From Octopus sinensis (taxonomy: Eukaryota): a stretch of DNA of 64,000 nucleotides. The notes beneath the pieces were generated by a model. That model was not told where the DNA came from and searched no databases. It was given only the letters and a program-made list of their open reading frames with translations. Numbering within the stretch: the first letter of the stretch is position 1; the number at the start of each line of letters is the position of its first letter. The stretch lies in NCBI RefSeq assembly GCF_006345805.1, contig NC_042999.1:75206001-75270000 (forward strand), in the 5' to 3' direction. The position numbers were made by a program, and so were the translations under genes. Shown piece after piece: positions 5,481-11,329 of the stretch.

Positions 5481-7597
5481 TATATATATATACATATATA
5501 TATATATAATGTGTGTATATATCTATATTTATATATATATATATATATACGGGTGTGTGTGTTTGTATTTATAATCTGTATACATAAGTATATATAATGC
5601 GCATATACATATATATATATATATATATATATATATATATATATATATATATATATATATATATATATATATATATATATATATATATCTAATGCGTATA
5701 TGTATATATATAAAATACAACCTGGGACAAGAACGCAAAACATTTAGAAGACGATACAAAAAAATACGGTCGGGTCATTCGAATCCTTCAATTTTCAGTC
5801 AAGAACCGGCTCATCCTCGCAATTTCGGCTGATTAATCTTGAGATTGCTCCAATTTGGCCAGCCCCAAGGAAAAACTAAGCTAAGCGCATTAGATTCCTT
5901 GGAAAAATGCTTCGAATGTATACGAAACAAGGACGGAAAAACGATGTTACACGAATATAAATACAAAAATAATACGAAACAACAACAACAATAATAATAA
6001 TAATAATAATAATAATAACAACAAGAGGACCTCACAACAGGCGTCTTTCGACTTAGACGAATTAAACTCAGCTGGCGTGTTAGGAATGTGCCTTGGGGCA
6101 GACAAAAAAAATGTTGATGTTACTACGACCGCTATCAGACGAAAAAGGCCAGTAGTCGGTCAGTCAGTCACGTGTGAAGGGAAGAGAGAGGAAAAGAGGG
6201 ACAGAGGAATTAAGGAGTAGGAGAAGAGAGAGAGAGCGAAAAAAAGACAAGGACAAAGTGAAGTGCAAAGTAAGAAAGGCAAAGGATTTGTTGGAGAGGG
6301 GGGGGAGAGACGCTGTTGTAGAGTCGTACCAAGTTTAGAGAAATGTGTACTTACATATAAGAGAAAGGGTACGTTATTAAGTAGTTGTCCTTAATTGCTA
6401 TATATATATATATATATATATATATATATATATATATATATATATACATACATATACATGTATGTATACTAGTATTATAACCCAATTCCATTCGGGTCTA
6501 CTCGGGCCACGTTTTAAAAAATGAGGAATTTAGCCCTAGATGTCACGCCTTTCAATTGAGCAAACTCAAAGTTGCCATGCAAACTCTCCAGCACTTGTAT
6601 GCAAATTTTCAGACCACATTTACTAACACTTTTGCCCGCACAACTGCTGCGCTTTTCACAAATATATAGTAGACTTACAAAGATACCCGGCGTTGTTTGA
6701 GATTAAAATGGCATAGTTCTTTATTGTTTTACTTGTTTTGGTATTATAACCCAATTTCATTCGGGTCTATTCGGGCCACATTTTAAAAGAAGAGGAAATT
6801 TTCCCCAGAGGCCACGCCTTTCAATTGAGCAAACTCAAAGTTGCCATGCAAACTCCCTAGCACTTTTAACATAGGTGTGCAAATCTTCAGCACAATCCGA
6901 CCACATATGCACCTGCCCCAATGCACATTCCTAACACGCCAGCTGAGTTTAATTCGTCTAAGTCGAAAGACGCCTGTTGTGAGGTCCTGTTATTGTTATT
7001 ATTATTATTATTATTATTATTATTATTATTATTATTATTGTTATTATTATTTTTATTTTTATTGTTTTTTCGTATTATTTTTGTATTTATATTCGTGTAA
7101 CATCATTTTCCCGTCCTTTTTCGTATACATTCGAAGCTTTTCCAAGGAATCTAATGCGTTTAGCTTAGTTTTTCCTTGGGGCTGGCCAGATTGGAACAAT
7201 CTCAAGATTAATCAGCCGAAATTGCGAGGATGATCCGGTTCTTGACTGAAGATTGAAGGCTTCGTCCCTGTTTTTGTATCGTCTTCTAAATGTTTTGCGT
7301 TTTTGTCACAGTTTGTTTTATATATATATATATATATATATATATATATATATATATATATATATATATATATAATTAATCAATATAGGGTGGCAAAAAA
7401 TTTTGTAGAATTTTTTTGCCACCAGCGGCCTAGTGGGAAAAAATTAAATAGTCATAGACCATTTTCAAGTTCAACATCACAATCAAGGAACGGCCATAAT
7501 AGGCCATTCACCCACTAGAAATAACAGCCAAAGCTTCAACCGCAAAATAACATCAATTCCGTAAACCAGGAGAAAATTAAAAAACATTTACCCTGTA

Positions 7598-7704
7598 ATT
7601 TCTTATACGATTCACCGTTTCATCTACTGTTTAATGGTAAACTAACCTGATTAAATTAAATCAAGCCAATCTTCCATAGGCCCTTAGAATCATCAGTAAG
7701 AAAT
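7598..7704 (-). ncRNA. Type I hammerhead ribozyme motif with extended stem II (also 8085-8191, 8572-8678, 9059-9165, 9546-9652)
   Basis: Minus strand: AUUUCUUA-CUGAUGA-U UCUA...UAGA U-GAAA-CGGU(GA/GC)AUCG-UA-UAAGAAAU. 8-bp stem I, intact core, GUA cleavage triplet. Confidence 0.8.
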
Positions 7705-10095
7705 AGCCAAGTCGGAACAGATATTTTCACGAGGCATTTTCGTCCCTGCCTCGGCAATATCTGACCTAAAATTTTCAAATCATCGCACTCGCGCCAAATT
7801 TATCGGCAGCAAATAAATATACGCCGCCGATTCCATTACGGAATTAACCAGAAAATTCATAATTAATCAATATAGGGTGGCAAAAAATTTTGTAGAATTT
7901 TTTTGCCACCAGCGGCCTAGTGGGAAAAAATTAAATAGTCATAGACCATTTTCAAGTTCAACATCACAATCAAGGAACGGCCATAATAGGCCATTCACCC
8001 ACTAGAAATAACAGCCAAAGCTTCAACCGCAAAATAACATCAATTCCGTAAACCAGGAGAAAATTAAAAAACATTTACCCTGTAATTTCTTATACGATGC
8101 ACCGTTTCATCTACTGTTTAATGGTAAACTAACCTGATTAAATTAAATCAAGCCAATCTTCCATAGGCCCTTAGAATCATCAGTAAGATATAGCCAAGTC
8201 GGAACAGATATTTTCACGAGGCATTTCCGTCCCTGCCTCGGCAATATCTGACCTAAAATTTTCAAATCATCGCACTCGCGCCAAATTTATCGGCAGCAAA
8301 TAAATATACACCGCCGATTCCATTACGGAATTAACCAGAAAATTCATAATTAATCAATATAGGGTGGCAAAAAATTTTGTAGAATTTTTTTGCCACCAGC
8401 GGCCTAGTGGGAAAAAATTAAATAGTCATAGACCATTTTCAAGTTCAACATCACAATCAAGGAACGGCCATAATAGGCCATTCACCCACTAGAAATAACA
8501 GCCAAAGCTTCAACCGCAAAATAACATCAATTCCGTAAACCAGGAGAAAATTAAAAAACATTTACCCTGTAATTTCTTATACGATTCACCGTTTCATCTA
8601 CTGTTTAATGGTAAACTAACCTGATTAAATTAAATCAAGCCAATCTTCCATAGGCCCTTAGAATCATCAGTAAGAAATAGCCAAGTCGGAACAGATATTT
8701 TCACGAGGCATTTTCGTCCCTGCCTCGGCAATATCTGACCTAAAATTTTCAAATCATCGCACTCGCGCCAAATTTATCGGCAGCAAATAAATATACGCCG
8801 CCGATTCCATTACGGAATTAACCAGAAAATTCATAATTAATCAATATAGGGTGGCAAAAAATTTTGTAGAATTTTTTTGCCACCAGCGGCCTAGTGGGAA
8901 AAAATTAAATAGTCATAGACCATTTTCAAGTTCAACATCACAATCAAGGAACGGCCATAATAGGCCATTCACCCACTAGAAATAACAGCCAAAGCTTCAA
9001 CCGCAAAATAACATCAATTCCGTAAACCAGGAGAAAATTAAAAAACATTTACCCTGTAATTTCTTATACGATGCACCGTTTCATCTACTGTTTAATGGTA
9101 AACTAACCTGATTAAATTAAATCAAGCCAATCTTCCATAGGCCCTTAGAATTATCAGTAAGAAATAGCCAAGTCGGAACAGATATTTTCACGAGGCATTT
9201 TCGTCCCTGCCTCGGCAATATCTGACCTAAAATTTTCAAATCATCGCACTCGCGCCAAATTTATCGGCAGCAAATAAATATACGCCGCCGATTCCATTAC
9301 GGAATTAACCAGAAAATTCATAATTAATCAATATAGGGTGGCAAAAAATTTTGTAGAATTTTTTTGCCACCAGCGGCCTAGTGGGAAAAAATTAAATAGT
9401 CATAGACCATTTTCAAGTTCAACATCACAATCAAGGAACGGCCATAATAGGCCATTCACCCACTAGAAATAACAGCCAAAGCTTCAACCGCAAAATAACA
9501 TCAATTCCGTAAACCAGGAGAAAATTAAAAAACATTTACCCTGTAATTTCTTATACGATGCACCGTTTCATCTACTGTTTAATGGTAAATTAACCTGATT
9601 AAATTAAATCAAGCCAATCTTCCATAGGCCCTTAGAATCATCAGTAAGAAATAGCCAAGTCGGAACAGATATTTTCACGAGGCATTTTCGTCCCTGCCTC
9701 GGCAATATCTGACCTAAAATTTTCAAATCATCGCACTCGCGCCAAATTTATCGGCAGCAAATAAATATACGCCGCCGATTCCATTACGGAATTAACCAGA
9801 AAATTCATAATTAATCAATATAGGGTGGCAAAAAATTTTGTAGAATTTTTTTGCAACCAGCGGACTAGTGGGAAAAAATTAAATAGTCATAGACAATTTT
9901 CAAGTTCAACATCACAATCAAGGAACGGCCATAATAGGCAATTCACCCACTAGAAATAACAGCGAAAGCTTCAACCGCAAAATTTATTTGCTGCCGATAA
10001 ATTTGGCGCGAGTGCGATGATTTGAAAATTTTAGGTCAGATATTGCCGAGGCAGGGACGGAAATGCCTCGTGAAAATATCTGTTCCGACTTGGCT

Positions 10096-10202
10096 ATTTC
10101 TTACTGATGATTCTAAGGGCCTATGGAAGATTGGTTTGATTTAATTTAATCAGGTTAATTTACCATTAAACAGTAGATGAAACGGTGCATCGTATAAGAA
10201 AT
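10096..10202 (+). ncRNA. Type I hammerhead ribozyme motif in the inverted end of the 487-bp array
   Basis: atttctta CTGATGA ttcta...tagat GAAA cggtgcatcg TA taagaaat, read directly on the + strand. Confidence 0.8.
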
Positions 10203-11329
10203 TACAGGGTAAATGTTTTTTAATTTTCTCCTGGTTTACGGAATTGATGTTATTTTGCGGTTGAAGCTTTGGCTGTTATTTCTAGTGGGTGTATGGCCTA
10301 TTATGGCCGTTCCTTGATTGTGATATATATATATATATATATATATATATATATATATATATATATATATATATATATATATATATACATATATATATAT
10401 ATATATATATATATATATATATATATAGCGGCGTACGTACCCTTTCTCTTATATGTAAGTACACATTTCTCTAAACTTGGTACGACTCTACAACAGTGTC
10501 TCTCCCCCTCTCCAACAAATCCTTTGCCTTTCTTACTTTGCACTTCACTTTGTCCTTGTCTTTTTTTCGCTCTCTCTCTCTTCTCCTACTCCTTAATTCC
10601 TCTGTCCCTCTTTTCCTCTCTCTTCCCTTCACACGTGACTGACTGACCGACTACTGGCCTTTTTCGTCTGATAGCGGTCGTAGTAACATCAACATTTTTT
10701 TTGTCTGCCCCAAGACACATTCCTAACACGCCAGCTGAGTTTAATTCGTCTAAGTCGAAAGACGCCTGTTGTGAGGTCCTCTTGTTATTATTATTATTAT
10801 TATTATTATTATTATTATTGTTGTTGTTGTTTCGTATTATTTTTGTATTTATATTCGTGTAACATCGTTTTTCCGTCCTTGTTTCGTATACATGCGAAGC
10901 ATTTTTCCAAGGAATCTAATGCGCTTAGCTTAGTTTTTCCTTGGGGCTGGCCAAATTGGAGCAATCTCAAGATGAATCAGCCGAAATTGCGAGGATGATC
11001 CGGTTCTTGACTGAAAATGGAAGGATTCGAATGACCCGTCCGTATTTTTTGTATCGTCTTCTAAATGTTTTGCGTTCTTGTCCCAGTTTGTATTTTATAT
11101 ATATACATATACGCATTAGATATATATATATATATATATATATATATATATATATATATATATATATATATATATGTGTATATATATATATATATATGTA
11201 TATATATATATGCGCATTATATATACTTATGTATACAGATTATAAATACAAACACACACACCCGTATATATATATATATAAATATAGATATATACACACA
11301 TTATATATATATATATGTATATATATATA

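What the first reader, a model, noticed from the sequence alone, without database searches (positions are those of the whole stretch)
7319..10427. Filled and empty site of the 487-bp array both present in the window
Seen: in the left arm the array lies between ...CACAGTTTGTTT(TA)n and (TA)nGCGGCGTACGT. The mirror position in the right arm (21552-21599) has the same flanks joined by only ~48 bp of (TA)n. Inference: the whole 2.95-kb multimer plus inverted end inserted as one event into a TA microsatellite after the palindrome formed. This is direct evidence of mobility and target preference. Loss from the right arm by TA-TA recombination is the alternative.
Basis: partly seen in the sequence, partly recalled or inferred. 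Interest (0 to 1): 0.72.

Follow-up and report, generated by a model that had tools for sequence, protein, structure and literature searches.

The report
Hammerhead retrozyme with filled, empty sites
The 3-kb array is one copy of a scattered, non-coding repeat family with a hammerhead (self-cutting RNA) motif that sits in TA microsatellites as two back-to-back arms and is absent from the duplicate of this site; it was likely pasted in by Penelope-type retrotransposon enzymes, a known kind of element.

Summary
In detail: the site is filled at 7319-10427 and empty at 21552-21599. The array is one copy of a dispersed 487-bp family, with about 1,200 sites of one end motif genome-wide. Of 36 other loci, 29 are two-armed and 25 have one arm starting at each of two fixed points 106 bp apart; none pairs like ends. 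Each unit carries a type I hammerhead motif on the predicted RNA strand (0 of 5,000 shuffles), and subfamily changes keep its pairing. This is a non-LTR retrozyme with the insertion anatomy of Penelope-like elements: tandem, inverted arm, tail, (TA)n target. Gain is favoured, because the empty junction is native to the flanking repeat (12 of 30 sites) and two more filled/empty pairs lie nearby. Loss from the right arm and the timing are not excluded. Across 46 two-armed loci, 16 rare variants are fixed in both arms and none in one arm only, which points to one RNA template, possibly a circle. Cleavage, circles and the partner enzyme are untested. The scan found this class earlier on other DNA of this genome.

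The parts
7319..7374 (.). Left (TA)28 target microsatellite
7372..7477 (-). Alpha end plus 106-bp tail (unit positions 382-487); the outer end is the inferred reverse-transcription start site 2
7478..9983 (-). Long arm: five full 487-bp units (starting 7478, 7965, 8452, 8939, 9426) and a 71-bp partial unit; the predicted RNA strand is minus
7598..7704 (-). Type I hammerhead motif of unit 1 (core CUGAUGA at 7696-7690, predicted GUA cut after 7606); repeated every 487 bp; unit 4 has a G8A core change
9982..9983 (.). Fold joining the two arms, with a 2-base overlap
9982..10322 (+). Inverted arm (unit positions 341 to 1) ending at the beta end (10322), the inferred start site 1; hammerhead motif at 10096-10202
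10323..10427 (.). Right (TA)~52 microsatellite
21552..21599 (.). Empty paralogous site, (TA)24, in the other arm of the inverted duplication
6913..7318 (+). Left flank: 3' part of an older dispersed repeat ('B family') that ends in (TA)n
10428..11110 (+). Right flank: next unit of the B family, starting GCGGCGTACG; this start follows (TA)n at 440 sites genome-wide
1..3634 (.). Second family (546-bp unit) with the same two-arm anatomy and a 101-bp tail; the element starts about 105 bp upstream of the window; filled site
13085..13198 (.). Empty paralogous site of the 546-bp element (copy 1)
18757..18794 (.). Empty paralogous site of the 546-bp element (copy 2)
16062..16148 (.). Empty paralogous site of a 487-family subfamily-2 element that lies about 4 kb upstream of the window (L021); a second empty copy is at 32465-32614

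Best explanation
The array is one copy of a dispersed, non-coding 487-bp repeat with a type I hammerhead motif, likely a non-LTR retrozyme that a Penelope-like element's enzyme pasted into this (TA)n tract. Shown: the dispersed family, two fixed ends 106 bp apart, inward-facing arms of independent length, a variable fold point, (TA)n on both sides, the hammerhead motif, and empty paralogous sites. Inferred: the GIY-YIG endonuclease nicks both strands of (TA)n. Each 3' end primes reverse transcription on the unit's RNA at one of two fixed sites, 128 and 234 nt downstream of the predicted hammerhead cut. Each cDNA runs on through the cut site for a variable number of units, so the template is a ligated circle or an uncut multimer. 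The two cDNAs are joined head to head by microhomology or filler end-joining. Some later shuffling among units is likely at this locus. The right-arm copy most likely never received the insertion.
For: Family: 774 first-look candidates. Ends: 25 of 36 loci have alpha+beta, 4 are two-armed with one end cut off by other DNA, 7 are single-armed, and none is alpha-alpha or beta-beta. In a position-ordered sample on contig C1, 22 of 37 beta ends face an alpha end within 10 kb, against 0.09 by chance, with 0 like-end pairs. The 546-bp family has the same anatomy in 13 of 20 loci. Hammerhead: present only on the strand whose 3' ends are alpha and beta; 0 of 5,000 shuffles meet the strict rule. The five differences between two subfamilies fall on N7, restore pair 10.1-11.1, are compensatory (A-U to G-C), or turn G-U into G-C; none is in the core. 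Contigs of four public runs show the same variable sites and (TA)n at the beta end. Only 1 of 62 inner arm ends lies within 10 nt of the predicted cut; folds show short overlaps or fillers. Template: 16 rare variants are fixed in both arms (12 of 46 two-armed loci) and 0 in one arm only. RT plus C-terminal GIY-YIG elements in this genome end directly at (TA)n, some with a short extension. Literature: tandem + inverted + tail + (TA)n anatomy (PMC8557442); two RT start sites define the tail and both strands are cut and extended (PMC11167929); tandem cDNA from a primed circle is proposed (PMC7229834). Gain: 12 of 30 sampled B-family junctions are empty by a strict rule and none holds a 487 or 546 unit within 1.4 kb upstream; two more filled/empty pairs each have 2 empty copies to 1 filled.
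Against: No autonomous partner was found: there is no similarity to the 487 unit in 50 held GIY-YIG loci, nor for two of its end motifs in the Craig et al. supplement. The tail is 106 bp, not the published 30-40 bp. The hammerhead is not the minimum-energy fold: stem I and the long stem II form, but the core mispairs, and this subfamily has a U-U mismatch at 10.1-11.1. Only one of nine Xenopus retrozymes cleaved in vitro. The 546-bp family has the same anatomy but no canonical hammerhead by the same scan. This array is heterogeneous, with three variants in only some units, and 9 variants across loci occur in both arms but not all units, so a pure monomer-circle origin is not shown. Timing relative to the duplication is unresolved.
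Confidence: 0.8

Rival explanations
1. Same element, but it inserted before the inverted duplication and was then lost from the right arm by recombination or slippage between the two TA tracts.
For: About 10 single-unit changes in 2.95 kb (0.3%) match the per-arm divergence of about 0.35%, and two variants are fixed and private to this array. A fold-back between TA tracts is a plausible deletion substrate (established knowledge).
Against: It needs one more event. Five of the ten changes cluster beside the fold and may be consensus errors. The neighbouring 546 element is clearly younger than the duplication: its units are 100% identical to copies on other contigs, against 0.43-0.63% divergence between segments, with 2 empty paralogues to 1 filled.
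Confidence: 0.15
2. A short (1-2 unit) two-armed insertion that expanded locally by unequal exchange, the satellite model discussed in the 2026 preprint; the multimer did not move as a whole.
For: Units 1 and 3 are identical and variants recur in some units only; L046 and L038 show periodic variant patterns.
Against: No variant is fixed in one arm only, against 16 fixed in both arms, across 46 loci. Both arms are often multimeric. The 3.7-kb 546 element shows one substitution among its window units. This is compatible with the main model as a secondary process.
Confidence: 0.25
3. A rolling-circle DNA element (Helitron/Helentron-like) whose unit ends in a hairpin plus CTAG.
For: A hairpin followed by CTAG at unit positions 398-443. 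Tandem multimers occur. 11 of 62 inner arm ends fall at positions 427-448.
Against: No outer end of 36 loci lies at the CTAG, and only 1 of 62 inner ends is compatible with it. It does not explain the conserved hammerhead on the other strand or the alpha/beta pairing. A polymerase stall at the hairpin explains the cluster (inference).
Confidence: 0.04
4. A fold-back DNA transposon with repeat-filled terminal inverted repeats.
For: Inverted arms with internal tandem repeats and a TA target.
Against: The ends are asymmetric: 25 of 25 complete two-armed loci are alpha+beta, and there are 0 like-end pairs; 7 of 36 loci are single-armed.
Confidence: 0.03
5. The 'palindrome' is partly two haplotypes assembled side by side, so filled and empty are alleles, or the fold is an assembly artefact.
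For: Arm divergence of 0.6-0.9% is in the range of heterozygosity (inference). No listed contig bridges the fold.
Against: Segments A and C each occur three times at about equal distance, which two haplotypes cannot give. Fixed ends recur across many contigs and in independent runs. An allelic pair would still mean a recent insertion.
Confidence: 0.1

Closest known systems
Metazoan non-LTR retrozymes (PMC7229834, passages and Discussion read; bioRxiv 10.64898/2026.07.22.740005, parts 1-3 of 5 read)
   Same: Dispersed, low-GC, non-coding tandem units of a few hundred bp with a type I hammerhead, proposed to be mobilised by Penelope-like elements via circles.
   Different: Neither main text describes two-armed insertions, two fixed ends, a tail or empty sites: 'inverted' has 0 hits in PMC7229834; in the preprint 'tail' and 'empty' have 0 hits and 'inverted' occurs once, in a reference title. 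Here stem II is about 68 nt long, and Rfam did not report it. Cleavage and circles are untested here.
Endonuclease-positive Penelope-like element insertions (PMC8557442 and PMC3846280, passages; PMC11167929, parts 1-2 of 4)
   Same: Partial tandems, an inverted 5'-truncated copy, a tail at one end only, a microsatellite target, a hammerhead upstream of the 3' end, and two start sites.
   Different: No ORF; the tail is 106 bp (101 bp in the second family) instead of 30-40 bp; both arms can be multimers of up to 14 or more units; no autonomous partner was identified.
Non-autonomous Chlamys elements such as MRC1 (PMC8557442, passage)
   Same: Non-coding Penelope-like derivatives that make multicopy head-to-tail insertions.
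   Different: Those are from green algae, belong to a clade that lacks canonical hammerheads, and resemble their autonomous partner at the 3' end; no such match was found here.

Membership tests
Non-LTR retrozyme | Short low-GC tandem unit, dispersed in many loci | tested here: met
   487-bp unit, GC about 0.36; 774 candidates; just above the 150-450 bp range of PMC7229834 and within the 51-972 bp range of the preprint
Non-LTR retrozyme | Type I hammerhead motif in consecutive units | tested here: met
   Motif in 5 of 6 units that cover it (unit 4 has G8A); 0 of 5,000 shuffles; subfamily changes keep the pairs
Non-LTR retrozyme | No protein coding | tested here: met
   No stop-to-stop frame of 120 aa or more inside the element; the only overlapping one starts at 10248 and runs through the TA tract
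Non-LTR retrozyme | Self-cleavage | not testable with these tools
   Folding puts the core in a mispaired state; needs an in vitro assay
Non-LTR retrozyme | Expressed as linear and circular monomer RNA | not testable with these tools
   Only contigs were available; contigs cannot show strand, ends or circles
Non-autonomous Penelope-like element | Tandem plus inverted 5'-truncated copy | tested here: met
   29 of 36 loci two-armed with variable inner ends
Non-autonomous Penelope-like element | Tail at one end only | tested here: met
   25 of 25 complete loci are alpha+beta; 22 of 37 beta ends on C1 face an alpha end; no like-end pairs
Non-autonomous Penelope-like element | Tail length of 30-40 bp | tested here: not met
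   106 bp; 101 bp in the 546 family
Non-autonomous Penelope-like element | Microsatellite target | tested here: met
   Alpha and beta ends abut TA-type tracts
Non-autonomous Penelope-like element | End sequence shared with an autonomous partner | tested here: inconclusive
   No match in 50 held GIY-YIG loci, drawn from 149 scored matches of 5,029 candidates
Helitron/Helentron | 3' terminus at hairpin plus CTRR (feature recalled, from no call) | tested here: not met
   The CTAG is internal; no outer end of 36 loci lies there
TIR fold-back DNA transposon | Identical inverted termini (feature recalled, from no call) | tested here: not met
   0 like-end pairs

The most novel reading that the evidence does not exclude
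Each insertion records twin rolling-circle reverse transcription: both nicked strands of one (TA)n prime on the same hammerhead RNA circle, at two fixed sites 106 nt apart, and each goes round a different number of times before the two cDNAs are joined. The filled/empty pairs and the both-arm-fixed variants would then be direct genomic evidence that satellite-sized arrays are born in one step from a retrozyme circle.
Probability: 0.4. Interest if true: 0.65.

Novelty: new member of a known kind. Interest (0 to 1): 0.42.

Why it matters
How Penelope-like elements make their tandem/inverted insertions, and whether retrozyme arrays arise by one-step copying of an RNA circle or by later local expansion, are stated as open questions (PMC8557442; preprint). 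This family offers fixed start sites, a long tail, empty paralogous sites and variants shared between arms. These give a ready template for an in vitro test and favour insertion as a multimer from one template. The kind of element is known, and this scan has already reported sister families in this genome.

Tried and rejected
Rfam scan of 1-26000 gave no hammerhead hit, only microsatellite noise; the motif was found with my own scan. Search for an autonomous partner among 50 GIY-YIG loci, and for two end motifs of each family in the Craig et al. supplement, found none. No RNA holder was listed on record for the unit; the guessed-RNA contigs cannot show expression. Laying contigs on the fold showed no listed bridge, which is inconclusive. 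Whole-genome end counts are inflated on one strand by overlapping matches, so only the singly counted strands are used: 623 for alpha and 347 for beta, roughly 1,200 and 700 sites. The pooled core-versus-rest count (11 of 2,376 against 544 of 22,878) was not used as a test: it is dominated by a few inherited subfamily changes, some loci overlap, and rare changes hit the core about as often as elsewhere. A canonical hammerhead in the 546 unit was not found under three relaxed cores. Dating the insertion against the arms was inconclusive. L046 and the upstream subfamily-2 copy were left out of the arm-variant count. Helitron and TIR readings were rejected on the end maps. Searches for prior description: (0 papers); subscription papers and the preprint's supplements were not visible and may describe this anatomy. 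Scan look-ups by sequence and by nearby place gave nothing.
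Full report
Observation. In the left arm a 2,951-bp element (7372-10322) lies between (TA)28 and (TA)~52; in the right arm the same flanks are joined by (TA)24 at 21552-21599. The arms belong to an inverted duplication whose segments differ at 16 of 2,241, 7 of 790 and 13 of 2,054 non-microsatellite sites. The window lies on contig C3 of a 2.7-Gb genome; that it is likely a cephalopod is my recall from its repeats and comes from no call.

The family. The 487-bp unit has 774 first-look candidates in the genome. I fetched all 36 other clusters visible in the listed matches. 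Of these, 29 are two-armed, and 25 have one arm starting at unit position about 382 (alpha) and the other at about 1 (beta). Four have one end cut off by other DNA, 7 are single-armed, and none pairs like ends. The arms have independent unit numbers, from under 1 to 14, and the fold point varies. These loci were top-scoring hits and are biased to young, long copies. In a position-ordered sample on C1, 22 of 37 beta ends face one of 68 alpha ends within 10 kb (0.09 expected by chance), with no like-end pairs. A second subfamily at about 94% identity has the same ends. An unrelated 546-bp family, present at the start of the window, has the same anatomy with a 101-bp offset in 13 of 20 loci.

The ribozyme motif. 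Rfam found nothing relevant. My own scan found a type I hammerhead on the strand for which alpha and beta are 3' ends: an 8-pair stem I, CUGAUGA, a 68-nt stem II, GAAA, a 4-pair stem III and a GUA cut triplet. None of 5,000 dinucleotide shuffles met the strict rule and 3 met a loose one. The five differences between the subfamilies lie on the free N7 position, restore pair 10.1-11.1, form one compensatory pair, or improve a G-U pair. Contigs of four public runs vary at the same sites and show (TA)n at the beta end (12 variant rows were not shown). Against activity: the core mispairs in the minimum-energy fold, this subfamily has a U-U mismatch at the base of stem II, and one unit here has G8A. 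Beta lies 128 nt and alpha 234 nt downstream of the predicted cut.

Mechanism. Tandem copies, an inverted truncated copy, a tail at one end and (TA)n targets are the described anatomy of Penelope-like insertions (PMC8557442, passages; PMC3846280, passages). A purified Penelope-like protein cuts and extends both strands and starts at two internal RNA sites that bound the tail (PMC11167929, parts 1-2 of 4). This genome has RT plus GIY-YIG elements that end directly at (TA)n, though none of the 50 loci held resembles the 487 unit. Inner arm ends do not pile up at the predicted cut (1 of 62 within 10 nt), so the template is likely a circle or an uncut multimer; folds show overlaps of a few bases or short fillers. 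In 46 two-armed loci of both families, 16 rare variants are fixed in all covering units of both arms (12 loci) and none is fixed in one arm only; 9 occur in both arms but not all units, 8 in some units of one arm, 187 are singletons, and 44 lie where only one arm covers the position. This points to one template for both arms and fits passage through a monomer, but homogenised donors or gene conversion could give the same pattern. The window's own array is in the heterogeneous class.

Gain or loss. The flanks are two successive units of an older repeat whose start follows (TA)n at 440 sites. In 12 of 30 sampled sites the family's 3' end lies directly before that TA tract by a strict rule, more by eye, and none holds a 487 or 546 unit upstream. 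The empty junction is therefore the native state. One other 487 locus (L022) sits in the same kind of junction. Two further filled/empty pairs lie here, each with two empty paralogues. The 546 element is younger than the duplication, as its units are 100% identical to copies on other contigs while the segments differ by 0.43-0.63%. For the 487 copy itself the order is not settled: about 10 single-unit changes in 2.95 kb match the per-arm divergence, although five of them cluster beside the fold and may be errors. No listed contig bridges the fold, which proves nothing either way.

Comparison and verdict. It works like, and by the testable features is, a metazoan non-LTR retrozyme (PMC7229834, passages and Discussion; bioRxiv 10.64898/2026.07.22.740005, parts 1-3 of 5), with Penelope-type ends and an unusually long tail. 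I did not find the two-armed, two-end anatomy described for retrozymes in those texts or in searches; supplements of the preprint and subscription papers were not visible. I reached the Penelope reading and the hammerhead before seeing that earlier follow-ups in this genome report sister families with the same anatomy and a two-start model; those are unchecked AI notes, not support. What this locus adds is three filled/empty pairs and the shared-variant test. Novelty: new member of a known kind. Interest 0.42.

Noticed in passing
window 1-3634 and L021 end: A very young 546-bp family (many copies 100% identical across contigs, 732 candidates) has the same two-end anatomy but no canonical hammerhead by my scan; the fold here carries a templated filler of about 20 bp.
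   Followed up: partly
window 3705-4653, 12134-13084, 18794-19746: A third two-armed family (period about 486 bp) inside segment A, with a hammerhead motif on the predicted strand (4514-4465 minus and its paralogues).
   Followed up: partly
L021:5500-10000 and window 1-22600, 32233-34157: A nest of young (0.4-0.9%) direct and inverted segmental copies whose breakpoints mostly fall in (TA)n tracts; segments A and C occur three times.
   Followed up: partly
L022-L057, unit positions 427-448: 11 of 62 inner arm ends cluster just past a strong hairpin, perhaps a polymerase stall site.
   Followed up: no
window 9904-9964: Five C-to-A or C-to-G changes within about 110 bp beside the fold; consensus error or clustered damage.
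   Followed up: partly
alpha and beta ends of three families: On the RNA strand most of these ends carry a CCU/CCCU motif within about 15 nt of the end, a possible shared protein-recognition signal; seen by eye only.
   Followed up: no
window 4711-5480, 11330-12100, 19822-20590, 23877-25106: Mariner-type transposase fragments (Transposase_1 and DDE_3) inside segment A, and a longer copy at 23.9-25.1 kb.
   Followed up: partly
window 27976-28641, 44835-45281, 46252-46641: Open frames that look like exons of sulfotransferase-type genes (recalled resemblance, not tested).
   Followed up: no
L089-L100: Abundant young Penelope-like elements with 760-880 aa RT plus GIY-YIG frames ending exactly at (TA)n; L099 has a hammerhead motif about 160 nt before its 3' end.
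   Followed up: partly
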